From the IMG/VR virus record IMGVR_UViG_3300033121_000370, positions 8,742-72,741 of that record: DNA of 64,000 nucleotides; one strand, written 5' to 3'. The DNA is from a virus (taxonomy: Duplodnaviria; Caudoviricetes). This document shows, piece after piece, positions 6,546-23,751 of the stretch (positions are counted from its first letter, which is position 1; each line of letters starts with the position of its first letter). Under the pieces are notes generated by a model. That model was not told the origin of the DNA. It searched no databases and was given only the letters and a program-made list of their open reading frames with translations. Position numbers and translations under genes: made by a program.

Positions 6546-6857
6546 ATGGTTGGATTCTACCTTGATGATACACGGGAGCCGCCTAACAACGGGGAGTGGG
6601 TTGTAGCTCGTAACTTCGAGGAAGCTATCCTAGCCTATGCCCGGAATCGCTTAGTCATATCTACCCTGAGCCTTGACCATGACTTAGGGGAAATAGCTAC
6701 AGGCTTGGACTTTCTAAGGTGGTTAGAACGTAACTACCCGAATGATTTGCTGGATAAAGCTATCATAGTGCACTCAGCTAATCCTGTAGGTAAAGCTAGG
6801 ATGCAGAACTTCATCAGTGACTTTATCAGGAGTAACCCATATGGATACACCACTTAA
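6546..6857 (+). CDS. Cyclic-phosphate-processing receiver-domain (cREC)-like protein
   Basis: FYLDDTREPP...WVVARNFEEA...LSLDHDLGE..TGLDFLRWLE...IIVHSANPVG matches the LDDxR / SLDHDLG / HSaNPvG pattern of this stand-alone receiver family linked to RNA repair. Confidence 0.8.
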   Translation: MVGFYLDDTREPPNNGEWVVARNFEEAILAYARNRLVISTLSLDHDLGEIATGLDFLRWLERNYPNDLLDKAIIVHSANPVGKARMQNFISDFIRSNPYGYTT

Positions 6858-7044
6858 AGTTTCAGTAGTTATATCCGTAGCTACTGTAATATTCCTGGGA
6901 TGGGCAGCTGTAGATGCTATAGCTAAGCTACCCCAGCCTACCGCCTCAGCTCCTACCTCTATCCAGGAGTGCTGGGACAAGCCTCTGGTCCCGAACGATA
7001 AAATCCTTGAGGTTCAATCTCTTATGGAGGCTTTGCTCAAATGA
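6841..7044 (+). CDS. Small membrane protein
   Basis: ATG at 6841, one hydrophobic helix, overlaps neighbouring genes. Confidence 0.5.
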   Translation: MDTPLKVSVVISVATVIFLGWAAVDAIAKLPQPTASAPTSIQECWDKPLVPNDKILEVQSLMEALLK

Positions 7045-7292
7045 TACATCACACTCCACTTAGCCTACCGGCCAACACCCCATTCAGGTTTATACCTTTG
7101 CCCGGAGCTACCGAGCCTTGGACAGCTTCTACCTTCTGCATCGACGGGGTAGGTGAGCTGTATGTATTCGATGAGGCTGGCTTGCCCCAGTCCAACACTA
7201 GCCACTACAACGAGCTAAATGAATTCTGGCAGTATCTCGGGGTATTCCTTACCCTTGGGCTGCCCGAGTGTTTTGAAGCTGAGAGTGAGTAA
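7041..7292 (+). CDS. Hypothetical protein
   Basis: ATGA overlap with the previous gene, RBS ggagg. Confidence 0.55.
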   Translation: MIHHTPLSLPANTPFRFIPLPGATEPWTASTFCIDGVGELYVFDEAGLPQSNTSHYNELNEFWQYLGVFLTLGLPECFEAESE

Positions 7293-7313
7293 AGCGAAGA
7301 GGAGTAACTTAGT

Positions 7314-7595
7314 ATGATGCAGCAGAACAACGCCTTTAGTCGCTTGGTAGGAGAGCCCTACCTGGCCCGTATGACTGTGGATAACTTGGCAAAGTTTGCC
7401 CGAGACTGTATCCGTAACAACCGTAGGGTAGGTTCTACCTATCTGGCCAGGTACGCTCGGAATTCCTATCACAATGCCGAGCTGTTCTATGCGTCTGATG
7501 CCAAGGCTATTCAGATGCTGCTTAACTACAGCCAGACGTGTAGCCTACGTATCCCAGCCCCAGCCGTAGTTGTTGAAGGGGCTGTAGCAGCTTAA
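7314..7595 (+). CDS. Hypothetical protein
   Basis: RBS gaggag, co-oriented with neighbours. Confidence 0.6.
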   Translation: MMQQNNAFSRLVGEPYLARMTVDNLAKFARDCIRNNRRVGSTYLARYARNSYHNAELFYASDAKAIQMLLNYSQTCSLRIPAPAVVVEGAVAA

Positions 7596-7622
7596 CCCTA
7601 GAAAGAGGGGGAGAAAGAGAAC

Positions 7623-7913
7623 ATGCCTACTACCGAAAAACCCCCTGTTGTAGTACACACCTTCACTACCTTATCCCTTAGCGATACCAAAGCGTACCTA
7701 GAGAGTATCGTGGGCCGCGAGCACTCCGGCTGGGCAGACATAATCTCCAAAGCTGAGAGCCTTGCATATGAAGGCCACAAAGTAGCAATCTCCTACACTA
7801 TCTCTGGTACTGAAGAATTAGTTAACCAAGAAGATGAGGTATTCGAGGTCTTACTCAAGCGTGAGTTTGGCCTAAAAGATGGGGATGAAATCCTTTTTGT
7901 AGATGTAGCCTAG
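7623..7913 (+). CDS. Hypothetical protein
   Basis: Purine-rich RBS, co-oriented with neighbours. Confidence 0.6.
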   Translation: MPTTEKPPVVVHTFTTLSLSDTKAYLESIVGREHSGWADIISKAESLAYEGHKVAISYTISGTEELVNQEDEVFEVLLKREFGLKDGDEILFVDVA

Positions 7914-7928
7914 AACAGTTAAACCATT

Positions 7929-8125
7929 ACAGGTGGTGTGGAGCAGTGGTAGCTCCACTCTGGCGGACGAAGCCCTAGCGTTACCGGGAAACCGGCCCGC
8001 CTAAGCGGGTTAAGTACTCTTATGTCACCTTCAGACCACTGAGAGTACTGAGTTAGGAAGCAGTCAGAAATATCGGAGTTTGAAGGCCCGACCAGTTATC
8101 CTTATAAGACCGACTGGCCACCTGT
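7929..8125 (+). ncRNA. Unclassified structured RNA with a tRNA-like 5' D-arm
   Basis: 9-bp terminal stem acaggtggt/gccacctgt. D-arm GAGC-agtggta-GCTC. Hairpins ccgg-gaaa-ccgg, cccgc-ctaa-gcggg and agtactct/agagtact. Possible pseudoknot ccttca/tgaagg. No canonical T-loop or CCA. Confidence 0.6.
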
Positions 8126-8156
8126 TCTATTACCCTCTAACTAGGAGTAACCTACT

Positions 8157-8666
8157 ATGGAATACATTAGGTACACATCGAGAGATGTAATGCTCGCTGC
8201 CCAAGCTAGCGGTATCTTCGACGAGGACTGCGAATTTAAGCTAGGAGAGTTTTACCCTGAAAGAGCCCCCGTTGACCTGTGCTCGAGCCCTAAAGGAGCT
8301 CGAGCCCTACAAGAGTTTCTTGGTGAGATGCTCGAGCTAGTAGAAGGGGGTACCTATGGTGAAGACCCAGTTACCTTACTACCAGTTATGGATGAGTTTG
8401 GGAATAGAGTAGAGCACTACCGAGCTGTTCTGTACGTGGAAGGTCTTCAGTTCCTGGTTAGCCCTAAGAAAGCTCTAGACATGGTTTGGTCCAGCGCCAC
8501 AAGAATGGCCACATGTAACCGTATCTACGACAATTATAATCACCCACTCAGTCTAGAAGAGGAACTCTCTAGTAAGGCCTTCAACCTGTTAAAAGAGCTC
8601 CGTAAGTTGAAGCTTAGGTACCTCCCGGAGGATAGACAGTTAGCCTTAACAAAAGAGCAGGAGTAA
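8157..8666 (+). CDS. Hypothetical protein
   Basis: 169-aa ORF with strong RBS aggag, flanked by identical 17-nt repeats. Confidence 0.7.
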   Translation: MEYIRYTSRDVMLAAQASGIFDEDCEFKLGEFYPERAPVDLCSSPKGARALQEFLGEMLELVEGGTYGEDPVTLLPVMDEFGNRVEHYRAVLYVEGLQFLVSPKKALDMVWSSATRMATCNRIYDNYNHPLSLEEELSSKAFNLLKELRKLKLRYLPEDRQLALTKEQE

Positions 8667-8672
8667 CCTACT

Positions 8673-9890
8673 ATGAAGGTATTCGAGGGAATCCGTGTGC
8701 CTATCAAGGCTTGGACAGACGGGGTAGAGTTAGAGGATGAGGCCAAGCAACAGCTAGTTAACCTTAGCTCTCTCCCGTTCGTACACAAGCACGTAGCTGT
8801 TATGCCTGACGTTCACTGGGGCAAAGGAGCTACGGTTGGCTCAGTCATAGCTACCAAGGGTGCTGTAGTCCCAGCTGCTGTAGGTGTAGACATAGGCTGT
8901 GGCATGATTGCCTGTATGACGAGCCTAGTAGCCAATGATTTGCCAGATAACCTATCACAAATACGCTCAGCTATAGAGCAAGCTGTGCCCCACGGACGTT
9001 CAGATAACGGAGGCTTGGCTGATAAAGGAAGACATCTAGGAGAGTTACCTAGTGAGGCTTCCAGTAATTTCCTAAGCTTACTAAATAGCCTGAACCAAAT
9101 AGTAGAAGCAGCCCCCATTCTTGCTAAGCCAGCTGCTGCCTGTAGCCGACACATGGGCACTCTTGGTACCGGCAATCACTTCATTGAGATTTGCCTAGAC
9201 GAGGCTGACCGGGTTTGGATTATGCTCCACTCAGGTAGCCGGGGTATCGGTAACGCTATCGGTACCTACTACATCAACAAGGCCAAGGAAGAGATGCGTA
9301 AGTACTTCATCAACCTTCCTGATGCAGACTTAGCCTATCTCCCAGAGGATACTCAGGCGTACAAGGAGTACCTAAGAGCTGTAGAGTGGGCTCAGGAGTT
9401 TTCAAAGGCTAATCGGGAAACCATGATGAGCCTTGTTGTATCCAGCTTGAAGAAGTCCTTAGGCCGAGAATTTACAAGCGCTGTGGTAGCTGTGAACTGC
9501 CATCACAACTATGTCTCTACTGAGAGACACTACGGAGAGAACTTGGTTATCACCCGTAAGGGTGCAGTATCTGCTAGGGAAGGGGAACTAGGCATTATCC
9601 CCGGCTCTATGGGTGCTAAGTCCTACATTGTCCGAGGTAAGGGCAACCGGGAGAGTTTCTGTAGCTGTTCCCACGGAGCAGGGCGTAGGTTATCTCGCAA
9701 CAAGGCAAGGGAAGCTTTCACCCTTGAAGACCATGCTAGGGCAACTGCTGGTGTTGAGTGCCGTAAGGATGCCGAGGTCTTGGATGAGACACCGGGAGCC
9801 TATAAGGACATTGACGCAGTTATGCAAGCTCAAGCCGACCTAGTGGACATTGTTCACACACTAAAGCAGTTGGTTTGTATCAAAGGTTGA
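8673..9890 (+). CDS. rtcB: RtcB 3'-phosphate/2',3'-cyclic phosphate-5'-OH RNA ligase
   Basis: MPDVHWGKGATVG, VGVDIGCG, GTLGTGNHFIE, LHSGSRG, HHNY, TRKGA, IPGSMG, SCSHGAGR and DETPGAYKDI all match RtcB motifs. Confidence 0.97.
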   Translation: MKVFEGIRVPIKAWTDGVELEDEAKQQLVNLSSLPFVHKHVAVMPDVHWGKGATVGSVIATKGAVVPAAVGVDIGCGMIACMTSLVANDLPDNLSQIRSAIEQAVPHGRSDNGGLADKGRHLGELPSEASSNFLSLLNSLNQIVEAAPILAKPAAACSRHMGTLGTGNHFIEICLDEADRVWIMLHSGSRGIGNAIGTYYINKAKEEMRKYFINLPDADLAYLPEDTQAYKEYLRAVEWAQEFSKANRETMMSLVVSSLKKSLGREFTSAVVAVNCHHNYVSTERHYGENLVITRKGAVSAREGELGIIPGSMGAKSYIVRGKGNRESFCSCSHGAGRRLSRNKAREAFTLEDHARATAGVECRKDAEVLDETPGAYKDIDAVMQAQADLVDIVHTLKQLVCIKG

Positions 9891-9904
9891 AGGAGTAACT
9901 AGCT

Positions 9905-10421: not shown

Positions 10422-10525
10422 GTGTACCCTCAGAGACCAGATAGACTTTATCAACTTGGTACTTCTTCTAGGCAAGAAAGACTTACTAGAAGAGAGCCTA
10501 GCAAAGTTAGGAGATACCAACAATT

Positions 10526-12316
10526 ATGCCTGAACTTACCCCTGACGAGAGAGCAAGAGTTATCGGAGCATTAGAAAGGACTAATGCTATCCTAGAAGGA
10601 ATTCCCTTCAGAGAGGAGTTCTATCTAAGTTACCGGGACGGAAGACCTATTCCTGAGTCCGCCCTTAGCTTCAGTATTGCCTTACCTCTTTCTGAGAAGA
10701 AACGTTGGTGCTTTTTTAAGCTCCACAGCAACGGTCGAAGAGATTTCCGAGAAATGAGCCTTAGCGGGGCTGACCTCCGCGGGGCTGACCTCCGCGGGGC
10801 TGACCTCAGCTGGGCTAACCTTAGCGGGGCTAACCTTAGCGGGGCTAACCTTAGCGGGGTTGGCCTCCGCAGGGCTGACCTTAGCGAGGCTAACCTCAGC
10901 TGGGCTAACCTTAGCGAGGCTAACCTTAGCGGGGCTAATCTCAGCAGGGCTGACCTTAGCGAGGCTAACCTTAGCGGGGCTAATCTCAGCAGGGCTGACC
11001 TCAGCAGGGCTGACCTCAGCAGGGCTGACCTCAGCAGGGCTGACCTTAGCGAGGCTGACCTCAGCAGGGCTGACCTCAGCAGGGCTAATCTCAGCAGGGC
11101 TAATCTCAGCAGGGCTGACCTTAGCGAGGTTACTCTTGTGGGGGTTGACCTCCGCGGGGCTGACCTCCGCGGGGCTGACCTCCGCGGGGCTACTATTACT
11201 TCACCTACTACAGAGGGGAAACCTGACCCAATGTCTATATATGAACCAGTAGAGAGGGCTATAGGCAGAAAGACGCCGCCTACCTTAATGAATTACTCGG
11301 ACTCACCGGCAGCTGTGTACGGGGGAGCCTATGTTGTAACAGCTGCCGAGCTAGCCAAGATTACCGAAGGGGTTAAGCGAAGTAAAAACAACACCCTCCC
11401 TGATTTACTCCTTATGGGGGTAGAGCTTGAGGTAGAGCCCTTTGACACACAGGCTAGTCTTCCTGACGAAGAGGCCCGACGCCTAGCTAAAAGCGTAGCT
11501 GGGTGGGCCATCCTTAAGTCTGATGGTTCCTTGGGAAGAGGAGGCCGAGAGATTGTTACCCGGCCTATGACCTTGGATGCCCATAGAGTAGCTTGGATGG
11601 AGTTCTTCAGGGACAAGCCTCACGAATACCTATCATCCTGGAAGAGTGGGCGCTGTGGCTTACACGTACACCTAAACAGGGCTGCTATTAGCCCCCTAAC
11701 AGAGGGTAAACTAATCAGCTTCCTGAATGCTCCGAGTAACGTAAAGTTTACTCAGGACATTGCTGGGCGTAACTTACTCCACAATGAATACGCTGCTATC
11801 GCTCCCCTAAAGAAGATAACAGAAGGCTTTAGAAGACACCGAGTAACATCTGGTGGACCTATGAAGAGATTGCTAACTGGGGGAAACCGCACAGGTAGTC
11901 GCCACACAGCTACAAACATCTCTCAGCGCAACAGTGGGACTACCTTGGAGGTAAGAATCTTCCGAGGTAACATTGGGCGCAACGGGGTGTTTCGGGTATT
12001 GGAGTTCCTGCACGCCCTTGTTAGCTACCTTAGCCTGAACACTAACTCAGCCACTACGGTAGACAACTGGCTGGATTTTGTAACTTGGTTCGGAGAGCCA
12101 GAAAATTCCAAGGCTTACCCCGAGTTCTACCAGTGGCTCCTTGTGAAGAAGTACCTGTTTCCTAAACCTATCAGAAACATTAGCAAAGCTCCCCAGCTCC
12201 TGCGAGAGAAGAAAGTAGCTTTGCTGAAGTTCAGCCTGGGAGAGGATGAGCCTACAGATATGGTAAAGGAACAACCCAACGGAGAGGAGACAAGCGAAGC
12301 ATGTGTGTCATTCTAG
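10526..12316 (+). CDS. Pentapeptide-repeat protein fused to a putative amidoligase (COOH-NH2 ligase-like)
   Basis: 29 A(D/N)LxX repeats, then GVELEVE, KSDGSL, EIVTRP, CGLHVH, SRHTATN and TLEVRIFRG, typical of the phage putative amidoligase family. Confidence 0.8.
   Translation: MPELTPDERARVIGALERTNAILEGIPFREEFYLSYRDGRPIPESALSFSIALPLSEKKRWCFFKLHSNGRRDFREMSLSGADLRGADLRGADLSWANLSGANLSGANLSGVGLRRADLSEANLSWANLSEANLSGANLSRADLSEANLSGANLSRADLSRADLSRADLSRADLSEADLSRADLSRANLSRANLSRADLSEVTLVGVDLRGADLRGADLRGATITSPTTEGKPDPMSIYEPVERAIGRKTPPTLMNYSDSPAAVYGGAYVVTAAELAKITEGVKRSKNNTLPDLLLMGVELEVEPFDTQASLPDEEARRLAKSVAGWAILKSDGSLGRGGREIVTRPMTLDAHRVAWMEFFRDKPHEYLSSWKSGRCGLHVHLNRAAISPLTEGKLISFLNAPSNVKFTQDIAGRNLLHNEYAAIAPLKKITEGFRRHRVTSGGPMKRLLTGGNRTGSRHTATNISQRNSGTTLEVRIFRGNIGRNGVFRVLEFLHALVSYLSLNTNSATTVDNWLDFVTWFGEPENSKAYPEFYQWLLVKKYLFPKPIRNISKAPQLLREKKVALLKFSLGEDEPTDMVKEQPNGEETSEACVSF
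10757..11191 (+). repeat. 15-nt tandem repeat array (29 units) encoding pentapeptide repeats
   Basis: gct(g/a)ac ct(c/t) agc/cgc (g/a)gg units in frame; 435 nt = 29 x 15. Confidence 0.9.
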
Positions 12317-14993: not shown

Positions 14994-15022
14994 TTGCCCT
15001 AGAAGGTAGCTTAGGCTATACT
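14994..15022 (+). promoter_or_regulatory. Sigma70-like promoter for the Y RNA/Ro60 unit
   Basis: TTGCCC-17 nt-TATACT. Confidence 0.65.
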
Positions 15023-15040
15023 CAGGAAAGAGAGAGAGAT

Positions 15041-15187
15041 TGTACTTGGTAGTGTTAGTAAGCAGTTACTTCTCATTGGCGAGAGAGACACGGGTTCGAT
15101 TCCCGTAGCCCTGCCTTATCTATTATGTAGGGCTTCGTCTAGTGGTAGGACACTTAAATATCTGCTTGCGACTGTTCTCCAGGTACA
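15041..15187 (+). ncRNA. yrlA: YrlA-type Y RNA with a permuted tRNA-like module
   Basis: T-arm cggg-TTCGATT-cccg precedes a closed acceptor-like hairpin (agccctgc/gtagggct) and then a D-arm (gtct-agtggt-aggac). Terminal stems gtacttgg/ccaggtac and gtaagcag/ctgcttgc. Lies ~200 nt upstream of Ro60. Confidence 0.85.
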
Positions 15188-15192
15188 GCCTA

Positions 15193-15264
15193 TTTACCTA
15201 GTGTTGAGTGCTTCGGTTACTTCTTTCGGTGAAAATACACCGAGGCTATTGTTACCTGGGTAAA
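15193..15264 (+). ncRNA. Second, short Y-RNA-like hairpin
   Basis: Outer stem tttacctag/ctgggtaaa, internal loop, inner stem cttcggt/accgagg. Shares GTTACTTCT with the YrlA. Confidence 0.55.
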
Positions 15265-15270
15265 CCCCGT

Positions 15271-15342
15271 AGCTGTGGGTAGTGAATAAGTTGGTTTCAT
15301 CTTGTAAATGACTCGCCAGCTTAGCTGAGTACTCCCACAGCT
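15271..15342 (+). ncRNA. Third Y-RNA-like hairpin with an anticodon-loop-like apex
   Basis: Outer stem agctgtggg/cccacagct, loop tagtgaat, inner stem aagttgg/ccagctt, apical tcat-CTTGTAA-atga. Confidence 0.5.
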
Positions 15343-15383
15343 TTTCTTCTTGTAACCTCAATCTAACGGAGTGTCGAATAAAC

Positions 15384-16748
15384 ATGGCTAGTATCAATCA
15401 GGCTCGGGCTGTAGCGGCTCGCACAGAAGTAACCCACGGAGGAACTCCTGTCCGCCCGTACTCTAACGAGCAGCAGCTTACACGAGCAGTGCTTAGCTGT
15501 ATGCTTTGGGAAGACCAGTTCTACGAAGATGGCGTAGACATCGCTAAGCGTATCAGCCAGCTGGTACCTTTGTGTGGGCCTTCATTTGTAGCAGGGCTAG
15601 CTATAAAGGCTCGGAAAGAATGGGGTCTTCGCCACGTTCCTCTTCTTCTCACCGTAGAGATGCTCAAGCATCCCCTCCACAAGGCCTACGTAAGTGAGGC
15701 AATTACTAGTGGAGCTATCCACCGGGCAGATGATATGTCCGAACTCTTGGCTCTTTATTGGAAAGATGGAAAGAAGCCGCTTGCCAAGCAGCTAAAGAAG
15801 GGACTTGCTACAGTTTTCACCAGGTTCAACAGCTATGCACTTGCCAAGTATAAGGGTTTTGACAAGGCTGTATCCCTACGTGACGTTCTGTTTATGGTAC
15901 ACCCTAAGCCAAAGAACGCTGAGCAAGCTAAGACTTTCAAGGAGTTAGCCGATAAGACAATTGCTTCCCCGGATACTTGGGAAGTTGCCTTGTCAGGTGG
16001 GGCTAATAAGAAGGAAACATTTACCCGGCTTATCCAAGAGAGTAAGCTAGGCGGCCTCGCCCTGCTACGTAACATCCGTAACATGGAACAGGCAGGTGTG
16101 GATAAAGCTATCATAACCTTGGCTTTGGATAACATGGACTGCTCCCTCATTGAGCCCTTCCGGTTTATCGCCTGTAACAAGTATGCTAGCCCGGCACTAG
16201 AGCCAGCTATTGAGCGAGCCTTTCTCCGGGCCAGTAAGGCTTACCAAAGCCAAGCACTAGCTGCTAAATCTGTAGCAGTTCTTGTAGACCACTCGGGCTC
16301 TATGTTCCACACCAAGGTGTCGGCTAAGTCTGAGCTAGAGCGCTTCGATGCTGCTGTAGCCTTGGCAGCTATTGTTCGGGAAGCTTTTGATAACACTAGA
16401 GTTTTTAGCTTCGAGAATAAAGTAACTGAGGTTAAGCCACGTCACGGCTTCAGTCTTATAGATGAGGTCAGGCGCTGCCCGAGCGGTGGAACTAAGCTGT
16501 TCGATGCCCTGCACCTAGTAAAGGACACGGTTAATCCAGATATTATAATCTGCATCACTGATGAACAAGACACAGGTGGTACTCACCACAGTATGCCTGA
16601 CCTTAGCAAAGGTCAGCGAGGCTTTATCATTAATGTAGGCAGCTACAAGAATGGCATTAGCCACGGCCAGTGGACTAACATCACAGGGTTCTCGGATGCT
16701 GTGGTTAGGTACATTGTGGCTGACTTAAAAGGGTGTGAGGCTCTATAA
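15384..16748 (+). CDS. rsr: Ro60/Rsr TROVE-domain RNA-binding protein with vWA domain
   Basis: THGG, QQLTRAVLSCMLWEDQFYEDG, LRHVPLLL, RADDMSELLALYW, KQLKKGLA, YALAKY, LRDVLFMVHPKP, TWEVALS and ALLRNIRNM. vWA MIDAS motif VLVDHSGSM, and ITDEQ. Confidence 0.95.
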   Translation: MASINQARAVAARTEVTHGGTPVRPYSNEQQLTRAVLSCMLWEDQFYEDGVDIAKRISQLVPLCGPSFVAGLAIKARKEWGLRHVPLLLTVEMLKHPLHKAYVSEAITSGAIHRADDMSELLALYWKDGKKPLAKQLKKGLATVFTRFNSYALAKYKGFDKAVSLRDVLFMVHPKPKNAEQAKTFKELADKTIASPDTWEVALSGGANKKETFTRLIQESKLGGLALLRNIRNMEQAGVDKAIITLALDNMDCSLIEPFRFIACNKYASPALEPAIERAFLRASKAYQSQALAAKSVAVLVDHSGSMFHTKVSAKSELERFDAAVALAAIVREAFDNTRVFSFENKVTEVKPRHGFSLIDEVRRCPSGGTKLFDALHLVKDTVNPDIIICITDEQDTGGTHHSMPDLSKGQRGFIINVGSYKNGISHGQWTNITGFSDAVVRYIVADLKGCEAL

Positions 16749-16806: not shown

Positions 16807-16910
16807 GCACAGGTATCCAAGTGGCAACTGGCAAAGCCAGCCCGCTTGCGGGTAAGGACGGGGACTGTACCGAAAGGGGTACGTTAGTTCGAATCTAGCC
16901 CTGTGCACCA
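16807..16910 (+). ncRNA. Non-canonical tRNA-like RNA (intact acceptor stem, T-arm and CCA; expanded D-loop; no complete anticodon arm)
   Basis: GCACAGG/CCTGTGC-A-CCA and T-arm gttag-TTCGAAT-ctagc. D-stem TCC/GGA with a 28-nt two-hairpin insertion. After GGGGA-CT the complementary TCCCC strand is absent. Confidence 0.7.
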
Positions 16911-16921
16911 CCCATAGCTTT

Positions 16922-17085
16922 CTCTAGGTGGGGCGTATAGATTCACGGATGAGCCTAAGTACTTAGTACCTCTGGGCCACATCGAGGTCGGGAGAGGTGT
17001 AGCTACCTAATGGTGATGAAGCTGCTTCTTAACCTTGGAAACCCGGATACGCTAAAGGCTTTCTAGAGGCCGTGCCCACCTAGAG
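16922..17085 (+). ncRNA. Unclassified ~165-nt structured RNA candidate
   Basis: 11-bp perfect terminal stem ctctaggtggg/cccacctagag enclosing a non-coding stretch. Confidence 0.4.
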
Positions 17086-17408
17086 GATTACCTAAATACA
17101 AGAATTCTGACCTAGGCGGCTCATTGACCTAGGCAGCGGGGCTCTACGACGGAGCTGACACAGAAGGGTTATTACCAGAGCTAGCCCCCTTCCGCTACAG
17201 GGAACAGGCCTGTCCGGTACGCCAGTAAGCCGGGAAGATTAGAGGTGGAACTGCAAGCGATATTATTCGCGACTGCTGACCAACTCTTCCAAGGACCTCC
17301 CTCTCTAGAAGCAGTAGAGTGAGTTGGTATCTACAGAGGACCAGTGCACGGGTAGCCTCGACTGAGTAATTCCAACGGGAAGGCATTTTACTAGGAGAGC
17401 TCATTATT

Positions 17409-17522
17409 ATGAAGAAGAAACCTAGTGTAGTAGCTAAGAACTTAGCTTCCCCTAGATACCATCAAAGGGTGGTGCCTAACAAGAAGAAAGAAGTTAAACC
17501 TGAGATAACTGAGGAGGACTAA
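17409..17522 (+). CDS. 37-aa basic micro-ORF with ArfA-like core
   Basis: Not in the ORF track. RBS aggag. MKKKPSVVAKNLASPRYHQRVVPNKKKEVKPEITEED; LxxPxyxQRVxxNKK resembles ArfA LHDPLFRQRVEKNKKG. Confidence 0.55.
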   Translation: MKKKPSVVAKNLASPRYHQRVVPNKKKEVKPEITEED

Positions 17523-17525: not shown

Positions 17526-17831
17526 ATGCTATCACCACTTCAAACTGCCTATATCTCTCAGCCTAGAATTTCCAAGACTGACGGTGGGGATTATTTCTGC
17601 GTAGGTTACGTCTACGGAGATACTAAGGGGCGTTTCCTAGATGGAACCTTAATTCACACCAGTAAGCTGGAGAAGATAGACCTAAGAAGCGGGTCTATAG
17701 ATACTCTTAATTCTATTTACCGGATTGCTAGCGAGGCCGAAATTGCAACCTACCTACAGGCTAATAGAAATGGCAACGGCTGTAGCACTCACGTCTGCCG
17801 GTGTGGGCGGAAAGACTCATCAGACGTTTAG
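17526..17831 (+). CDS. Hypothetical phage protein
   Basis: RBS gaggagg. GYVYGDTKGRFLDGTLIHTS is a recurring small phage-protein pattern. Confidence 0.65.
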   Translation: MLSPLQTAYISQPRISKTDGGDYFCVGYVYGDTKGRFLDGTLIHTSKLEKIDLRSGSIDTLNSIYRIASEAEIATYLQANRNGNGCSTHVCRCGRKDSSDV

Positions 17832-18126
17832 ACTAGGCTGTGTACTATACGACCGAAAGGGCCGTGTAGTCAAGGCCAAGGTAAACTCCCTGAAAACTCA
17901 TCCAAAGATGGCCAAGCTAACCCCTTGGCCTTTTCTACATGCGGAACAGGCGTGTATCCTTAGCCAAGGCGTAGACAACTGCGAAGGCCTGAGCTTGTTG
18001 GTTGTCCGGGTGCGGAGGGATGGCAGCTACGGTATGGCTGAGCCGTGCGTTGTGTGCAAGAAATTAATAGAGGCAGCTGGAATAACTAATGTTCACTGGA
18101 GCACCCCGGAGTGGAGCGCTCGTTAA
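17770..18126 (+). CDS. Cytidine/dCMP deaminase-like zinc protein
   Basis: HAEQACI and EPCVVC zinc-binding motifs. Likely start is the ATG at 17770. Confidence 0.8.
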   Translation: MATAVALTSAGVGGKTHQTFRLGCVLYDRKGRVVKAKVNSLKTHPKMAKLTPWPFLHAEQACILSQGVDNCEGLSLLVVRVRRDGSYGMAEPCVVCKKLIEAAGITNVHWSTPEWSAR

Positions 18127-18139: not shown

Positions 18140-18604
18140 ATGGGAACGTATAGTTTTAGGAAGGACCTGGAGAAATCCAAGGCCTCAGTAGTTGAAGCAG
18201 CCAAGCGCCTAGAGGAGGCAGAGTTTCTAGATGGCTTGTTCTTTGTTAAAGAGATTCGGGACAACTCGGCTGACCTTATTATTCACAATCCTTGGACAGA
18301 AGAAACCAAGCTTGTGGAGGTAAAGGAAGACTTCTACTGCAAGAAGTCAGGCAACGTAGCTCTTGAAGTAGAGTGCCGTGGTAAGCCATCTGGACTAGCA
18401 GCTAGCCTAGCTGACTACTGGATGTATAAGATTCACCAGCCGGACTCTACAGTTTTCTGGGGCTTGGTGCCTATCCAAGACCTGTTCCGGGCTATCCGGG
18501 ATAAGGTATTCCTCCGGGAAGTAGTAGGAGGAGACAAGGGCTCAAGTACTCGTATGTACTTGTTTAGCTTGGATGATTTCAAGGCCCTTTGTAATGAAGT
18601 TTAA
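18140..18604 (+). CDS. PD-(D/E)XK nuclease-like protein
   Basis: ADL...VEVKEDF...GNVALEVECRGKPSGL..S.ADYW pattern. Confidence 0.6.
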   Translation: MGTYSFRKDLEKSKASVVEAAKRLEEAEFLDGLFFVKEIRDNSADLIIHNPWTEETKLVEVKEDFYCKKSGNVALEVECRGKPSGLAASLADYWMYKIHQPDSTVFWGLVPIQDLFRAIRDKVFLREVVGGDKGSSTRMYLFSLDDFKALCNEV

Positions 18605-18634: not shown

Positions 18635-19183
18635 ATGACGCTGTTTGCCGAGTTTCCTAAGATTTATCGCTTCTGGGAGCAAGATATTGTTGTAACCGAG
18701 AAGATTGATGGGACTAATGGCCTTATTCTTATCAACGAAGACCTGTCCGAGGTAAAGGCTGGTTCTCGCTCTAGGTTTATTACACCAACAAACGATAATT
18801 ATGGATTTGCCAAGTGGGTCGAAGATAACAAGGAAGAGCTGAGAAAGCTTGGGCCGGGCTACCACTACGGAGAATGGTGGGGCCAGGGTATCCAGCGGGG
18901 GTATCGTATGCCGAGAAAGGTATTTAGCCTCTTTAATGTCCACCGTTGGTCCGACCCTCTGGTTAGGCCTAGCTGCTGTGACGTTGTACCTGTGGTATAC
19001 CAAGGACTCATTCAGGGTTATCTGGAGAAGTTCCCTAACTACACAGCTGTTCCGAGCACCTCGCCCGCAGCAGACCGTTATGGCGTAACGTTTACTGACG
19101 TTGAAGGTCTTATGCTTTACTTTACGAAGTCTGGGACGTACATGAAGCACCTAAAGAAGCCAGGCCACAAGGAGGAGAAGTAA
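18635..19183 (+). CDS. ATP-dependent RNA ligase (Rnl2-like adenylation domain only)
   Basis: Motif I TEKIDGTN, AGSRSR, DNYGFAKW, motif III YGEWWGQGIQR, FSLFN and EGLM. Confidence 0.8.
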   Translation: MTLFAEFPKIYRFWEQDIVVTEKIDGTNGLILINEDLSEVKAGSRSRFITPTNDNYGFAKWVEDNKEELRKLGPGYHYGEWWGQGIQRGYRMPRKVFSLFNVHRWSDPLVRPSCCDVVPVVYQGLIQGYLEKFPNYTAVPSTSPAADRYGVTFTDVEGLMLYFTKSGTYMKHLKKPGHKEEK

Positions 19184-20118: not shown

Positions 20119-20462
20119 CTAAGAAGAAAACCTATCTTAATAACCCTATTGAATTCGAGCTAGGTGTTCCTTACACAGATGATACCCTGGACTACCAGAT
20201 TCAGTATCCCTTTGAGACACCTAGCGCTGTACGTGCCAAGAACAACGTGGGAGATGTCTTCAGCAATGCTGCTCGGTGTAGAAGCTGTGGCAGCTATGTA
20301 CGCTCCAAGAACCGCCACGACAACCGTAGCTGCTCCTGTGGAGCTATCTCTGTAGATGGGGGTAGCTGGTACTGTAAGCGCTCAGGTAAGCCGGAGCTCA
20401 TTGCCAACATGATTCTTATGTATAAGGATGTATCAGATGACGATGCACAGAAAAGACTATGA
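20115..20462 (+). CDS. Cys-rich phage protein
   Basis: ARCRSCG..VRSKNRHD.RSCSCGAISVDGG zinc-finger-like motif. Confidence 0.65.
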   Translation: MTKKKTYLNNPIEFELGVPYTDDTLDYQIQYPFETPSAVRAKNNVGDVFSNAARCRSCGSYVRSKNRHDNRSCSCGAISVDGGSWYCKRSGKPELIANMILMYKDVSDDDAQKRL

Positions 20463-20781
20463 ACTCATAGCTAAGGTCTTTAAGAGGGCACGTTCCTTAA
20501 GCGAAGCTGTGGAATTGCTAGCGCCTGAGCTAGCAAGGGATAATCCTGCTTTTAATCCAGACAAATTCTTTACTGCTTGCCGGAAAGGAGTAACCGAGGA
20601 ACCACGCTCTCTTAAGCCTTGTCCCTTCTGCGGAGGGAAGAATGTTCACTTAAACGAGAACTATGAATCCTTCGGTATAAGGATGACCTCGATTTGGTGT
20701 GGTACATGCGATGCTTCTTTCACCAACACAATGGCAACTAAAGAAGCTACTATTAGCTTATGGAACTCTCGCCAGGTGTAA
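20443..20781 (+). CDS. Lar-family (restriction alleviation)-like zinc-finger protein
   Basis: C-terminal LKPCPFCGG...IWCGTCDA...ATISLWNSR. Confidence 0.65.
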   Translation: MHRKDYELIAKVFKRARSLSEAVELLAPELARDNPAFNPDKFFTACRKGVTEEPRSLKPCPFCGGKNVHLNENYESFGIRMTSIWCGTCDASFTNTMATKEATISLWNSRQV

Positions 20782-20844
20782 TAAATAAGAAACAGTTGGG
20801 ATAAATACCACGTTACGTTACGTAAGCTCACAGGAGGGCAAAGG

Positions 20845-21294: not shown

Positions 21295-21296
21295 GG

Positions 21297-21518
21297 ATGA
21301 CAAGCGAATATGTAACTGGCAAAAAGCGGTATTGTACTGGTGATACAGAGCGCAAAAAGAATATTTGCGAAGGTTGCGTATATAGCCATCAGACTGATGA
21401 ACACAAGCCGTGCAACACATGCTTTAACCCACCTGGTGATTGGTGGGCTTCTAAACCTTATAGCAACTGGAAGCCGCGTGTCAGAGTGTTGGCTGCGACG
21501 CAAAAGGAGTTACCATAA
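21297..21518 (+). CDS. Small Cys-rich protein
   Basis: CEGC and CNTC motifs. Confidence 0.55.
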   Translation: MTSEYVTGKKRYCTGDTERKKNICEGCVYSHQTDEHKPCNTCFNPPGDWWASKPYSNWKPRVRVLAATQKELP

Positions 21519-22075
21519 TGACAACCCCCGACCCCAAGTCCCCGCTGCCGGATGATGTAGAGAAATCACTTAGCAATGTCGCTTGCGGTGTAACCGACTA
21601 TTCGGACTGCACGGTACTCCGCGCCCACGTTTCGTCCCTTTACGAAACCATCGCCGCGCTGCAAGCAGAAAAGATGCAGTGGTATCATAACGCGACAAAT
21701 AACGCGGCAGAGTTACTCGCAGCAGAGAGCGAGTTATTTGGAGCAAATAATAAGATTGCCGCGCTGGAGGCCGAGAACAAGCGGCTGGTGGAGGCGTTGC
21801 AAAAGATAGCCACAACAGAATACCGCATCTATGACGGAGGTAGACCGTACACAAGTGAGCATAGCAGTGGGTACGCTTTAGGAGTCGCGGACGGCCATAG
21901 ACTTGCCGCGAAGTGGGCAGAGGAAGCCCTCGCGCAGATGGGAGAGAAGTCATGCCAGAAATGTGATGGAGCCGGGTATGACCACGGTATAGGTGAAGGA
22001 CTAAGGCTACAAGACATACCGTGCCAACAGTGCAGCGGAACCGGAAAGGTAGGTGAAAGATGTCTACAGCGTTAA
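21518..22075 (+). CDS. Coiled-coil protein with C-terminal CxxCxGxG (DnaJ-type) zinc finger
   Basis: CQKCDGAG and CQQCSGTG; RBS aaggag. Confidence 0.6.
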   Translation: MTTPDPKSPLPDDVEKSLSNVACGVTDYSDCTVLRAHVSSLYETIAALQAEKMQWYHNATNNAAELLAAESELFGANNKIAALEAENKRLVEALQKIATTEYRIYDGGRPYTSEHSSGYALGVADGHRLAAKWAEEALAQMGEKSCQKCDGAGYDHGIGEGLRLQDIPCQQCSGTGKVGERCLQR

Positions 22076-22443
22076 AAGAAGCACTGGCAGTCTGGGATAG
22101 GCTAATAGAGGGTGAAGACTGGGACTTCCCGGAGAAGGTCAGGAAACAGTATAAGCTAATTCGAGATACCGTAGAGCAAGTAGAGGCTGCTAAGGCTTTA
22201 TCTATAGCTTGGAACGAACGGGCCGTTGAGGAAGACTTCAAGCGGAGGAAAGCAGAGAAAGCAATCACTTCCCTAGAGAAAAAGATTAAGCGTCTGGAAA
22301 AAGACAACATAAAGTGGCGGATTAGAGCTACAGACTATTTTGAGGATATTCACAACTTACGCGATGGGTACAAAGTTCAGATTAAGCGTCTTACCCATGA
22401 CCTAGAAAGCGCACTCGAGAGGATTAGCCATGTTCAAGTTTGA
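22060..22443 (+). CDS. Coiled-coil hypothetical protein
   Basis: Co-oriented, overlapping ORF. Confidence 0.55.
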   Translation: MSTALKEALAVWDRLIEGEDWDFPEKVRKQYKLIRDTVEQVEAAKALSIAWNERAVEEDFKRRKAEKAITSLEKKIKRLEKDNIKWRIRATDYFEDIHNLRDGYKVQIKRLTHDLESALERISHVQV

Positions 22444-22615
22444 AGATTTGGATTGCCTTCGCCTGGTCGCTATGCGAACCCGCTTCAAGGTAAACCAGAA
22501 AAAGAGAGACCTGGAGTTTCTTCAGGGTGAAATCAAGAGCTTAGAAGCTGAGGCTGACGGCTTGGAAAGACTCCTGAAAGACTGTGGTGAAGTAGCCTCC
22601 AAAGATTTTTCTTGA
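22430..22615 (+). CDS. Hypothetical protein
   Basis: RBS gagga, overlapping ORF. Confidence 0.5.
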   Translation: MFKFEDLDCLRLVAMRTRFKVNQKKRDLEFLQGEIKSLEAEADGLERLLKDCGEVASKDFS

Positions 22616-22640
22616 CTACTCAAGTCCAAGCTGTTAAGCT
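22612..22640 (+). promoter_or_regulatory. Sigma70-like promoter
   Basis: TTGACT-17 nt-TAAGCT. Confidence 0.6.
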
Positions 22641-22966
22641 GAGACTTGAGAAACATATAGCTGCCTCGTCCGTCCCACACTATAGCGACAGGTTAAACAA
22701 AGGCTCTACCAATTCAGGCGGTAGACTGGGAATGCAGCAAGAACCCTGTAAAAAGAAAGCCCCCAAGTTTCGCTTGGGAACCGAGTAGCGCACAACTACG
22801 TGTGCTTGGTTAAAGAGGATATGGCAAGGAAACACACACTCCGCCTTCCCTCCTAGGATAACCCTAGGATAAAACTCTTAACCAGTCCCAGCGGGGGGAT
22901 ATAGTTACGCCTAAGCGCTTAGGCGCTAAGAGATTACAACTAAAGATTAGAAAGGGAGATAAGCTA

Positions 22967-23527
22967 ATGTCCAACGTCTACTTTTTGGCGGACTTACACC
23001 TAGGGCATAGGGCAATCCTAGGCTTCAACGACTCCTCTAATAAGCCCTTGAGGGTATTCCCAGGCGGAGTACCCGAAATGCACAAATACCTAGTGTCTAA
23101 ATGGAATGCTAAGGTAGAGCCTAGCGCTAAGGTTATCGTTCTAGGAGATATTTTTCTAGTAGGTTCCTCTAGTGAGCCTGGCTACAAGGAACGCCTAGAC
23201 GAGGTAGCAGAAGTACTTAGAAGCCTGAATGGAGCTACTAAGGTCCTAGTTATGGGTAACCATGATGTAGACCCTTCGAAGCATCCTCTTCTGAAGGAAA
23301 TCTTTCAGGTACACCTAGGTTGCTACCAGTTTAAGAGAGCCATCTGTACACATATTCCGGTACATCCTGGCTCTCTAGAAGGGCGCTTCGACTACAACAT
23401 CCACGGCCACCTTCACACTTACCAGGTGAAGGATACTTTAGGTAATCCAGACCCTAGGTACATTAACGTAGCCGTAGAGCAACTAGACTACACACCTAAG
23501 ACTTATGAGGAGCTTACCAGCAGATGA
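22967..23527 (+). CDS. Calcineurin-like metallophosphoesterase
   Basis: ADLHLGH, VLGD, VMGNHD, CTHIP and IHGHLH. Confidence 0.9.
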   Translation: MSNVYFLADLHLGHRAILGFNDSSNKPLRVFPGGVPEMHKYLVSKWNAKVEPSAKVIVLGDIFLVGSSSEPGYKERLDEVAEVLRSLNGATKVLVMGNHDVDPSKHPLLKEIFQVHLGCYQFKRAICTHIPVHPGSLEGRFDYNIHGHLHTYQVKDTLGNPDPRYINVAVEQLDYTPKTYEELTSR

Positions 23528-23694
23528 AGAAGTTACTAAGTGAAGAAGCTAAGGATGCCTCGGTAATCCTTATTCTGTTTGTAGGTGCTTTGTACCTCTT
23601 AGGCTGGGCTGCCTTTCACTCCCCAAAGGGAGGGCTGCCTAAGCCATCAACTGTAGTTTGTCAAGCATCGACTAATAGCGGGTTGGAGAAGTAG
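23524..23694 (+). CDS. Small membrane protein whose 3' end overlaps the tRNA
   Basis: Not in the ORF track. ATGA overlap; MKKLLSEEAKDASVILILFVGALYLLGWAAF... Confidence 0.4.
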   Translation: MKKLLSEEAKDASVILILFVGALYLLGWAAFHSPKGGLPKPSTVVCQASTNSGLEK

Positions 23695-23751
23695 TATCTC
23701 GTCAGGCCCATAACCTGAAGACCACTGGTGCAATTCCAGTACCCGCACCCA
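23677..23751 (+). tRNA. tRNA-Met (CAU), initiator-like
   Basis: Full cloverleaf with 1:72 A.A mismatch, A11:U24, anticodon arm tcagg-ccCATaa-cctga, T-arm actgg-tgcaatt-ccagt and encoded CCA. Confidence 0.9.

What the first reader, a model, noticed from the sequence alone, without database searches (positions are those of the whole stretch)
6546..23751. Dispersed phage RNA-repair and tRNA-mimic system: RtcB, Ro60, Y RNAs, a second ligase, healing enzymes and tRNA-like RNAs
Seen in the sequence: a cREC-type receiver protein (6546), a structured RNA (7929), RtcB (8673), three Y-like RNAs and Ro60/TROVE (15041-16748), an aberrant tRNA-like RNA (16807), an ArfA-like peptide (17409), a deaminase, an Rnl2-like ligase (18635), a metallophosphoesterase (22967) and an initiator-like tRNA-Met. 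Established: in Salmonella, rsr, yrlA/yrlB and rtcB are co-regulated and respond to tRNA fragments with 2',3'-cyclic phosphate ends, and T4 uses Pnk/Rnl1 against the PrrC anticodon nuclease. Inference: this phage carries both repair routes (direct RtcB sealing and phosphatase plus ATP-ligase healing) together with its own RNP scaffold and possible decoy RNAs to defeat host ribonuclease-based abortive infection. No polynucleotide kinase was recognised, so the ATP-ligase route may be incomplete.
Basis: partly seen in the sequence, partly recalled or inferred. Interest (0 to 1): 0.85.

Follow-up and report, generated by a model that had tools for sequence, protein, structure and literature searches.

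The report
Phage RNA-repair genes and Y RNAs
An uncultured 73-kb phage carries several separately acquired, already known kinds of RNA-repair and RNA-quality-control parts (RtcB ligase, Ro60 with three Y RNAs, a mini RNA ligase), plus tRNA-derived RNAs, but they behave as independent gene cassettes rather than one coordinated system.

Summary
HMMs confirm cREC, RtcB, Ro60/TROVE, a cytidine/dCMP-type deaminase, a 182-aa Rnl2-type nucleotidyltransferase, a metallophosphoesterase and tRNA-Met. A covariance model built here from Ro60-linked phage RNAs gives the three tandem Y RNAs as the top three hits in the window.

The ArfA label is not supported. That small ORF is nevertheless a real, conserved gene.

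The "aberrant tRNA-like RNA" is a remodelled phage tRNA-Tyr. One close relative has the intact gene. A second has it with a 10-nt anticodon-arm deletion. This phage adds a 26-nt D-loop insertion.

A new lineage-specific structured RNA of about 165 nt lies just downstream.

The "one system" reading fails its own test:
- Close relatives carry RtcB without cREC, and the RtcB-adjacent ORF without RtcB.
- One relative has Ro60 and the deaminase but no ligase.
- RtcB occurs in 3 of 50 Ro60 phage records, and TROVE in 3 of 50 RtcB records.
- The phosphoesterase sits in the conserved replication module.
- The genome has no kinase, RtcA or 2H esterase.

Verdict: a new member of the phage RNA-repair and Ro/Y-RNA gene sets already surveyed in print. 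This scan has noted similar sets on many other genomes.

The parts
6546..6857 (+). cREC (cyclic-phosphate-processing receiver-like) protein, 103 aa
   Evidence: PF20274 E 1.7e-21, 77 bits against a cut-off of 27; phrog_1479. Present in close relative L269 but absent at the same place in L268.
7929..8125 (+). RNA A: candidate structured RNA. It opens like a tRNA (acceptor 5' strand plus D arm) and closes with a CAGGUGG/CCACCUG helix.
   Evidence: MFE -79.8 kcal/mol, z -4.4, 0 of 200 shuffles fold as well. No Rfam hit. It contains the twin hairpin GCCCGC..GCGGGU, which occurs only here and in the tRNA-like RNA. Absent from relatives L268 and L269.
8673..9890 (+). RtcB RNA ligase, 405 aa
   Evidence: PF01139 E 1.6e-131, profile positions 1-426 of 426. 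95% identical copy in L268. Absent between the o8157 and o9905 homologues in L230.
14994..15022 (+). Promoter-like site in front of the Y RNA array
   Evidence: TTGCCC-17-TATACT, 9 of 12 matches. The -35 box is kept in L247. This is a consensus match only.
15039..15191 (+). Y1: YrlA-type Y RNA with a permuted tRNA-like module (V, T, acceptor-like and D stem-loops) closed by a long 5'/3' stem
   Evidence: R1 116.6 bits, E 3e-29. The model alignment has 33 of 40 pairs with compensatory changes. Homologues in L247, L271 and L268.
15195..15264 (+). Y2: short Y RNA with the Ro-handle stem only
   Evidence: R1 E 0.039, third-best hit in the window, matched with the tRNA module deleted. Homologue in L247 at 1616-1684. 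Absent from L231.
15272..15343 (+). Y3: short Y RNA with the Ro-handle stem only
   Evidence: R1 E 0.009, second-best hit in the window. Homologues in L231 at 176-246 and L247 at 1842-1913.
15384..16748 (+). Ro60 / Rsr-like protein (TROVE plus vWA), 454 aa
   Evidence: PF05731 42 bits against a cut-off of 23; vWA families fall just under their cut-offs. 88 phage records hold relatives at 38-48% identity. Close relatives at 79-98% identity.
16807..16910 (+). tRNA-like RNA derived from a phage tRNA-Tyr(GUA). The acceptor stem, T arm, A73 and CCA are kept, the anticodon arm is destroyed, and 26 nt are inserted in the D loop.
   Evidence: Three-way alignment A10. L247 3500-3587 is called tRNA-Tyr by ARAGORN. 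Neither the window copy nor the L271 copy is called.
16920..17086 (+). B RNA: conserved structured RNA of unknown class
   Evidence: z -2.45. Four-sequence alignment A11 has 50 pairs, 9 with compensatory changes, and two apical hairpins are replaced in L247. Model R2 finds it only in the four close relatives. No Rfam hit.
17409..17522 (+). Small conserved ORF, 37 aa (the 'ArfA-like' peptide)
   Evidence: Against L247: 9 synonymous codon changes (plus an ATG/GTG start-codon difference) and 3 non-synonymous changes, all in the last five codons. No family hit. BLASTP to E. coli ArfA gives 9/23 identities, E 0.002 pairwise.
17770..18126 (+). Cytidine/dCMP deaminase-like protein, 118 aa
   Evidence: PF00383 E 1.5e-8. 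Best PHROG matches are dCMP deaminase families. HAE and PCxxC motifs are seen in the translation.
18635..19183 (+). Minimal Rnl2-type RNA-ligase nucleotidyltransferase, 182 aa
   Evidence: PF09414 E 1.1e-11; phrog_548 RNA ligase E 4e-28. Full-length homologues of about 170-180 aa occur in Caulobacter jumbo phages and mycobacteriophages. A profile of 11 homologues hits the T4 Rnl2 N-terminal domain at E 8e-7. KIDGTN, GEWWG and EG motifs are invariant.
22967..23527 (+). Small calcineurin-like metallophosphoesterase, 186 aa; probably part of the replication module
   Evidence: PF00149 24.4 bits against a cut-off of 21.5; phrog_547 E 1.5e-39. Best solved relative is aq_1665. In L272 it sits directly before tRNA-Met, primase-helicase and DNA polymerase A.
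23677..23751 (+). tRNA-Met(CAU) with encoded CCA and atypical features
   Evidence: ARAGORN and Rfam, 48.9 bits. Cloverleaf: A1xA72, A11:U24, two G:C pairs next to the loop, C33. The L272 copy has A1-U72.

Best explanation
The stretch is the mosaic early/accessory region of an uncultured tailed phage of about 73 kb. Several individually known RNA-damage-response modules lie in it as separate cassettes.

(1) RtcB seals 2',3'-cyclic-phosphate or 3'-phosphate ends to 5'-OH ends. A cREC protein lies 1.8 kb upstream; it is predicted, not shown, to process cyclic phosphates.

(2) A Ro60 ring protein is preceded by its own promoter-like site and three Y RNAs. One is YrlA-type with a tRNA-like head. 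Two are short and have only the stem that resembles the Ro-binding handle. By analogy with Deinococcus and Salmonella, these RNAs would bind Ro60 and tether it to other factors such as PNPase.

(3) A stand-alone Rnl2-type nucleotidyltransferase of a short phage family.

Around Ro60 lie tRNA-derived RNAs: a tRNA-Tyr that has lost its anticodon arm and gained a D-loop insertion, RNA A, and a lineage-specific structured RNA, B.

What is shown: the identities of the parts, the RNA structures by covariation, and the independent gain and loss of cassettes among close relatives.

What is inferred: that RtcB and the Ro60 particle help the phage survive host RNA-cleaving defences or RNA damage.

The deaminase and the phosphoesterase most likely belong to nucleotide metabolism and replication, not to RNA repair.
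For: - Family assignments.
- Y RNAs: alignment of seven Ro60-linked phage RNAs with 33 of 40 covarying pairs. R1 gives the top three hits in the window at 15039-15343. R1 gives 94 hits in 63 Ro60 viral loci, mostly tandem, upstream of Ro60 and on the same strand.
- The Y array itself is modular: the window has a, s2, s3; L247 has a, s2, b, s3; L231 has b, s3.
- Cassette behaviour. Identity to L230 begins and ends at a shared ribosome-binding-site box, GGAGTAACCTACTATG.
- Rare genome-level co-occurrence.
- tRNA-Tyr series.
- The phosphoesterase sits in the replication module.
- Published background: Y RNAs lie next to Ro60 in more than 250 bacteria and 22 phages, and each characterised species has at least two Y RNAs (PMC4201824). 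Phages carry RtcB, Rnl1/Rnl2, cREC and TROVE sets (PMC7824862). The Salmonella rsr-yrlBA-rtcBA operon is induced by damaged tRNA (PMC7790460).
Against: - There are no expression, binding or activity data. The host is unknown.
- RtcB and Ro60 do stay together, about 5.7 kb apart, in close relative L268. A second phage lineage (L073, L078) carries cREC, RtcB and a homologue of this phosphoesterase within about 18 kb. Some functional coupling therefore cannot be excluded.
- The Y RNA handle here (GGUAGUG) does not match the published GNCGAAN0-1G motif, and no Rfam family is hit.
- The 182-aa ligase lacks the Rnl2 C-terminal domain. From published T4 Rnl2 work, as I recall it, that domain is needed for the RNA-adenylylation step, so it may not be a complete ligase on its own.
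Confidence: 0.7

Rival explanations
1. One reading: one dispersed but coordinated counter-defence system. It would combine two repair routes (RtcB, and phosphatase plus ATP ligase) with a Ro60 scaffold and decoy RNAs aimed at anticodon nucleases.
For: - All parts lie on one strand within 17 kb.
- RtcB and Ro60 persist together in L268.
- cREC, RtcB and the same phosphoesterase family recur together in one other lineage.
- Ro60 lies directly beside RtcB in two provirus records, L132 and L137.
- The Salmonella operon shows that such parts can be co-regulated (PMC7790460).
Against: - The parts are gained and lost independently in close relatives.
- Co-occurrence is 6-8% at genome level.
- No polynucleotide kinase, RtcA or 2H esterase is present.
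- The phosphoesterase belongs positionally to the replication module.
- The deaminase is dCMP-type.
- Unrelated genes (pentapeptide-amidoligase, GATase-like and others) separate RtcB from Ro60.
Confidence: 0.15
2. The tRNA-like RNA at 16807-16910 is simply a dying tRNA-Tyr pseudogene. RNA A and region C are likewise decaying or selfish remnants without function.
For: - The series runs from intact (L247) to 10-nt deletion (L271) to deletion plus 26-nt insertion (window).
- No tRNA caller accepts it, even after systematic in-silico deletions.
- Its fold is not better than shuffles (z -1.7, on 16807-16902, which lacks the last 8 nt and therefore the acceptor 3' strand).
- RNA A has no homologue in close relatives.
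- Region C shows no excess structure.
Against: - The deleted form is found in two independent samples.
- The acceptor stem, T arm and CCA are untouched.
- A T-to-A change in both deleted copies creates pairing for a new GUACC/GGUAC hairpin.
- The inserted twin hairpin recurs in RNA A and nowhere else in 64 kb.
Confidence: 0.5
3. The Ro60/Y RNA particle serves RNA degradation or host take-over rather than repair. For example, it could direct host PNPase to structured host RNAs, as in the Deinococcus Ro60-Y RNA-PNPase machine.
For: - In the characterised bacteria, Y RNA tethers Ro60 to PNPase for structured-RNA decay (abstract and text of PMC4201824).
- Most Ro60 phages lack RtcB altogether: 47 of 50 records.
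Against: Nothing here tests it directly. The Salmonella operon links rsr to rtcB expression (PMC7790460).
Confidence: 0.3

Closest known systems
Salmonella Typhimurium rsr-yrlBA-rtcBA RNA repair operon (PMC7790460; PMC4201824)
   Same: Ro60 orthologue, one tRNA-like Y RNA plus short Y RNA(s), and RtcB in one genome on one strand.
   Different: Here RtcB and Ro60 are 5.5 kb apart with unrelated genes between them. No RtcA was found. RtcR was not sought. There are three Y RNAs, with a handle sequence that differs from GNCGAAN0-1G. The setting is a phage.
Phage Ro60 with YrlA-type Y RNAs (22 phages in Chen et al. 2014, PMC4201824; Caulobacter phage CcrColossus = L009 here)
   Same: Same RNA architecture (V-T-AS-D module inside a long stem). 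Same position, within 0.4 kb upstream of Ro60 and on the same strand. Tandem arrays.
   Different: Ro60 is only 38-48% identical to any isolate phage protein. Rfam does not detect the RNA.
Phage RNA-repair gene sets surveyed by Iyer et al. 2021 (PMC7824862): RtcB, Rnl1/Rnl2, cREC, TROVE, kinase-phosphatases
   Same: The same families. cREC is proposed there as a 2',3'-cyclic phosphoesterase linked to RNA ligases. TROVE is reported in a small subset of phages.
   Different: That survey concerns jumbo phages; this genome is 73 kb. No kinase, HAD phosphatase or 2H esterase was found.
T4 Pnk + Rnl1 (against PrrC) and T4 Rnl2
   Same: The 182-aa protein shares the Rnl2 nucleotidyltransferase motifs, and a profile of its family hits T4 Rnl2 at E 8e-7.
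   Different: There is no Rnl2 C-terminal domain and no Pnk. The family is the short 'divergent actinophage-type' ligase mentioned in PMC7824862.
M. smegmatis YrlA, whose 7-bp acceptor-like stem is cut by RNase P and receives CCA (PMC4201824)
   Same: Y1 has an 8-bp acceptor-like stem, and the separate tRNA-Tyr derivative keeps a 7-bp acceptor stem with CCA. Both could be handled by tRNA enzymes.
   Different: Processing was not tested here. The tRNA-Tyr derivative is not permuted and has no Ro handle.

Membership tests
RtcB (PF01139) | Full-length match to the family profile above the curated cut-off | tested here: met
   439.9 bits against a cut-off of 27, profile positions 1-426 of 426; confirmed on the genome.
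RtcB (PF01139) | 3'-P / 2',3'>P to 5'-OH ligase activity with GTP and Mn2+ | not testable with these tools
   Needs a biochemical assay.
cREC (PF20274) | Profile match above the cut-off | tested here: met
   77.2 bits against a cut-off of 27. Acidic residues (DD near the N-terminus, DHD mid-protein) are seen in the translation.
cREC (PF20274) | Gene linkage to an RNA ligase, as reported in PMC7824862 | tested here: inconclusive
   It lies 1.8 kb upstream of RtcB here and in L269. It is absent in L268, which has RtcB. It is found in 4 of 50 RtcB viral records and in 1 of 18 short-ligase loci.
Ro60 / Rsr (TROVE + vWA) | TROVE domain | tested here: met
   42 bits against a cut-off of 23.
Ro60 / Rsr (TROVE + vWA) | C-terminal vWA/MIDAS domain | tested here: inconclusive
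   VWA_2 scores 24.1 against a cut-off of 27, and vWA_Ro60 21.6 against 27.7. Both fall just below their cut-offs.
YrlA-type Y RNA (Chen et al. 2014) | V, T, acceptor-like and D stem-loops in that order, enclosed by a 5'/3' stem | tested here: met
   R1 116.6 bits; 33 of 40 pairs covary in the seed alignment.
YrlA-type Y RNA (Chen et al. 2014) | Within 4 kb of Ro60 on the same strand | tested here: met
   The RNA ends 193 nt before the Ro60 start codon, on the + strand.
YrlA-type Y RNA (Chen et al. 2014) | GNCGAAN0-1G motif near the 5' end | tested here: not met
   The window has GGUAGUG. The related phage RNAs have GGCGUAG or GGUGUAG.
YrlA-type Y RNA (Chen et al. 2014) | Binding to Ro60 | not testable with these tools
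   Needs immunoprecipitation.
Rfam Y RNA families | Any hit to a curated model | tested here: not met
   No Y RNA or YrlA hit at gathering threshold or at E<=10.
T4 Rnl2-type RNA ligase | Nucleotidyltransferase motifs I, III, IV and V, and profile similarity | tested here: met
   KIDGTN, GEWWG, EG and a C-terminal K are invariant in 11 homologues. PF09414. Profile against 1s68/2hvq at E 8e-7.
T4 Rnl2-type RNA ligase | C-terminal domain of Rnl2 (334-aa architecture) | tested here: not met
   The protein is 182 aa, and the family is about 165-205 aa over its full length. The phrog_548 match covers positions 27-134 of 341 only.
ArfA (PF03889) | Profile match | tested here: not met
   No hit with hmmscan at E<=10 or in the six-frame genome search. 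Only a 23-residue BLASTP match. The C-terminus is acidic, not the basic tail of E. coli ArfA.
Bacterial initiator tRNA | CAU anticodon and purine11:pyrimidine24 | tested here: met
   A11:U24 and CAU in the ARAGORN cloverleaf.
Bacterial initiator tRNA | Unpaired 1:72 | tested here: inconclusive
   A1xA72 in the window, but A1-U72 in the 94%-identical L272 copy.
Bacterial initiator tRNA | Three consecutive G:C pairs at 29-31:39-41 | tested here: not met
   A29:U41, G30:C40, G31:C39.
Canonical tRNA (for 16807-16910) | Cloverleaf with an anticodon arm, accepted by tRNA finders | tested here: not met
   ARAGORN and the Rfam tRNA model are silent. The 10-nt deletion removes the 3' half of the anticodon arm.
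T4-type healing-and-sealing pathway | Polynucleotide 5'-kinase | tested here: not met
   No AAA_33 or Zeta_toxin P-loop kinase in the 72.7-kb genome at E<=1. Other kinase folds were not searched.
T4-type healing-and-sealing pathway | 2',3'-cyclic phosphodiesterase / 3'-phosphatase | tested here: inconclusive
   No 2H esterase. cREC and the metallophosphoesterase are candidates by fold only. The phosphoesterase's best solved relative is aq_1665, and it lies in the replication module.

The most novel reading that the evidence does not exclude
The phage lineage may be converting its own tRNA genes into non-decoding tRNA-shaped RNAs. Examples are the anticodon-less tRNA-Tyr derivative with a twin-hairpin D-loop insert, RNA A carrying the same insert module, and a tRNA-shaped element in L247. 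Together with the lineage-specific B RNA, these could serve as ligands, decoys or regulators for the Ro60 / RtcB machinery. One possibility is soaking up a nuclease that targets GUN-anticodon tRNAs.
Probability: 0.15. Interest if true: 0.6.

Novelty: new member of a known kind. Interest (0 to 1): 0.35.

Why it matters
It adds a mid-sized (73-kb) uncultured phage to the list of phages that carry both RtcB and a Ro60/Y RNA particle. That pairing is uncommon in phages: about 6% of records in either direction here.

The close relatives give an unusually clear view of how these parts move. They are single-gene or single-RNA cassettes, swapped at a shared ribosome-binding-site box, and are not a co-inherited system. 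This tempers the tendency to read every cluster of RNA-repair-like genes as one defence-evasion machine.

The three-step tRNA-Tyr series and the B RNA are concrete, testable cases for the question of whether tRNA-derived RNAs near Ro60 are functional.

Tried and rejected
- Megablast of the whole stretch against isolate phages found nothing.
- Rfam at permissive thresholds gave no family for Y1-Y3, RNA A, the tRNA-like RNA or B.
- I looked for a close relative through the primase-helicase. The best viral record (G001) shares only replication genes and has neither Ro60 nor RtcB, so it is uninformative.
- Reading 16807-16910 as a tRNA with an intron or insertion failed. ARAGORN with intron options, and after every 5-49-nt deletion, gave no sensible tRNA.
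- A 19-mer from the B core found nothing in viral contigs and only 15 unrelated high-GC coding hits in JGI metagenomes.
- o8157 as a dedicated RtcB partner (archease-like) is rejected. It is an orphan, and in L230 it occurs without RtcB.
- The ORF at 18140 as the deaminase is rejected. The deaminase is the ORF at 17770.
- The ligase as a truncated gene is rejected. The family is short over its full length.
- Region C as a structured RNA is rejected on fold energy.
- cREC could not be traced in viral contigs by peptide patterns. The HMM search over records was used instead.

Full report
**Setting.** The window is bases 8742-72741 of a 72,741-bp IMG/VR virus record that CheckV rates complete. 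From about 5 kb to 37 kb all plausible genes run on the + strand. No isolate phage matches at the DNA level.

**Proteins.**
- Pfam confirms cREC_REC at 6546-6857 (E 1.7e-21), RtcB at 8673-9890 (E 1.6e-131, full profile), and TROVE with a vWA-like C-terminus at 15384-16748.
- RNA_ligase PF09414 matches 18635-19183 and Metallophos matches 22967-23527. PHROGs agrees on both.
- The deaminase is real but is the ORF at 17770-18126 (PF00383, E 1.5e-8). It has HAE and PCxxC motifs, and its best PHROG matches are dCMP deaminases.
- The ORF at 18140-18604 has no family and reads like a PD-(D/E)xK protein.
- Between RtcB and Ro60 lie a pentapeptide-repeat/amidoligase fusion, a GATase-like protein and orphan ORFs.
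- The whole genome has no AAA_33 or Zeta-type kinase, no RtcA and no 2H phosphoesterase.

**The short ligase.** It is not a truncation.
- Homologues of about 165-205 aa match it end to end in Caulobacter jumbo phages and mycobacteriophages and in 18 viral contigs.
- In an alignment of 11 homologues, motif I (KIDGTN), GEWWG, the EG of motif IV and a C-terminal lysine are invariant.
- A profile of that alignment hits only T4 Rnl2, in its N-terminal domain, at E 8e-7.
- So it works like the Rnl2 adenylyltransferase module but lacks the Rnl2 C-terminal domain. From published T4 work, as I recall it, that domain is needed for RNA adenylylation. Its competence as a stand-alone ligase is therefore unproven.

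**Y RNAs.**
- The 578-nt gap before Ro60 contains a T arm, a closed acceptor-like hairpin and a D arm in YrlA order.
- A simple pattern found the same layout next to Ro60 in other viral loci.
- Seven of these align well. RNAalifold gives a structure in which 33 of 40 pairs show compensatory change.
- The covariance model R1 scores the window RNA at 116.6 bits. With its tRNA module looped out, R1 picks 15272-15343 and 15195-15264 as the second and third best hits in 64 kb on both strands.
- Across 63 Ro60 viral loci, R1 finds 94 hits. Most are tandem, lie just upstream of Ro60 and are on its strand.
- This matches Chen et al. 2014 (PMC4201824): YrlA-type RNAs lie within 4 kb of Ro60 on the same strand in 254 bacteria and 22 phages, and each characterised species has at least two Y RNAs.
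- There are two departures. The 5' handle here is GGUAGUG rather than GNCGAAN0-1G, and no Rfam model responds.

**Close relatives.** These exist only as short assembly contigs, reached through exact-protein look-ups. They resolve most of the open points.

1. *The tRNA-like RNA.* L247 has, at the homologous place, an 88-nt class-II tRNA-Tyr(GUA) that ARAGORN accepts. L271 is 96% identical to the window over 3.4 kb. It has the same gene minus 10 nt, which removes the 3' half of the anticodon loop and the 3' strand of its stem. The window has that deletion plus a 26-nt twin hairpin in the D loop. The acceptor stem, T arm, A73 and CCA are unchanged in all three. A T-to-A change shared by the two deleted copies lets a new GUACC/GGUAC hairpin form. 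The inserted hairpin pair (GCCCGC-loop-GCGGGU) occurs exactly once more in the window, inside RNA A, with none expected by chance.

2. *B RNA.* The 165 nt after the tRNA-like RNA are conserved in L271, L231 and L247. They have invariant junction sequences, covarying closing helices and two apical hairpins replaced wholesale in L247. Model R2 finds B only in these four sequences among 1.2 Mb of Ro60 and related loci. It is a real structured RNA of unknown class and narrow range.

3. *The small ORF at 17409-17522.* It differs from the L247 copy by 9 synonymous codon changes (plus an ATG/GTG start-codon difference) and only 3 non-synonymous changes, all in the last five codons. It is therefore translated. 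The link to ArfA rests on a 23-residue BLASTP match. The ArfA profile finds nothing.

4. *Cassette behaviour.*
   - L268 keeps RtcB (95% aa identity), the pentapeptide genes, the Y region and Ro60. It has other genes where cREC, o7623, RNA A and o8157 lie here.
   - L269 has cREC, and RtcB follows directly after the o7314 homologue.
   - In L230, o8157 is 90% identical at DNA level but flanked by unrelated DNA upstream. Downstream it runs straight into the gene that follows RtcB here. Identity starts and stops at the shared box GGAGTAACCTACTATG.
   - L247 has Ro60, the small ORF and the deaminase but no ligase.
   - The Y array also varies: the window has YrlA-a, s2, s3; L247 has a, s2, a second YrlA-b, s3; L231 has b, s3.

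5. *The phosphoesterase.* In L272 it lies immediately before tRNA-Met, a 595-aa primase-helicase, DNA polymerase A, thioredoxin, endonuclease I and thymidine kinase. That is the replication module.

**Wider co-occurrence.**
- No Ro60 viral locus has RtcB, cREC, the ligase or the phosphoesterase within 10 kb.
- Of 80 RtcB loci, 2 have Ro60 beside RtcB and 4 have the phosphoesterase nearby.
- Over whole records, RtcB is in 3 of 50 Ro60 records (2 of 26 near-complete ones). TROVE is in 3 of 50 RtcB records. cREC is in 4 of 50 RtcB records.
- One other lineage (L073, L078) does carry cREC, RtcB and the phosphoesterase within about 18 kb, which is the only hint of recurring association.

**tRNA-Met.** The cloverleaf shows A11:U24 (initiator-like), A1xA72, only two G:C pairs next to the anticodon loop, C33, and an unusual UGC start to the T loop. 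The L272 copy is identical except for a T-loop base and the 3' end, where A1 pairs with U72. Initiator identity is therefore uncertain.

**RNA A and region C.** RNA A folds far better than shuffles (z -4.4), and it starts with a tRNA-like acceptor strand and D arm. It has no homologue, so it remains a candidate only. Region C (17089-17408) has no fold excess and no family hit for its only ORF. It differs from L271 at 2 of 320 positions, against about 4% in neighbouring genes. This is unexplained.

**Conclusion.** The parts belong to kinds already described for phages (PMC7824862, PMC4201824), and this scan has noted similar sets on many other genomes. The evidence favours independent modules that may each help the phage cope with RNA damage, over a single coordinated system. 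The most original elements are the stepwise remodelling of a tRNA-Tyr and the B RNA. Their function is open.

Noticed in passing
window 16920-17086 (also L271 2776-2944, L231 2458-2631, L247 3858-4013): A conserved structured RNA of about 165 nt (B). It has invariant junctions, covarying closing helices and swapped apical hairpins, and no Rfam match. It was found only in this phage lineage.
   Followed up: yes
window 7995-8010 and 16840-16853: A twin-hairpin module (a short GNRA-like hairpin followed directly by GCCCGC-loop-GCGGGU) occurs only in RNA A and in the D-loop insertion of the tRNA-Tyr derivative. It may be a small mobile or protein-binding RNA module.
   Followed up: partly
window 8141-8156 and 8657-8672; L230 junctions: The same 14-16-nt ribosome-binding-site box (GGAGTAACCTACTATG) precedes o8157 and RtcB. 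It marks the exact borders of homology to a relative. This suggests cassette exchange by recombination at shared translation-initiation regions.
   Followed up: partly
window 23775-26495: The primase-helicase is 906 aa here but 595 aa in close relative L272 and about 520-560 aa in most viral homologues. It probably carries an insertion of about 310 aa (an intein?).
   Followed up: no
window 10526-13299: A pentapeptide-repeat protein is fused to an amidoligase-like domain (phrog_7469, weak). An overlapping GATase_4-like gene follows it. The pair is conserved in L268.
   Followed up: no
window 17089-17408: A 320-nt non-coding stretch with no fold excess. It differs from L271 at only 2 positions, while flanking genes differ by about 4%. 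It is absent from L247, where a 129-aa ORF lies between B and the small ORF.
   Followed up: partly
L247 3388-3492: An extra tRNA-shaped element lies between Ro60 and tRNA-Tyr in a close relative. It has an 8-bp acceptor-like helix, a T-arm-like hairpin and an ACC end. Its 3' part resembles that of RNA A.
   Followed up: partly
L231 about 2374-2466: A near-canonical tRNA-Asn(GUU)-like gene with a 14-nt D loop, G73 and CCA, which ARAGORN does not call. It lies directly before the B RNA homologue.
   Followed up: partly
window 20428-20781: A Lar-type restriction-alleviation domain protein (PF14354, E 4.7e-12), next to a DUF7695 protein. These are further anti-defence or accessory genes in the same region.
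   Followed up: no
window 23677-23751: tRNA-Met has C33 instead of the near-universal U33, and a T loop that begins UGC rather than UUC. Both features are conserved in L272.
   Followed up: partly
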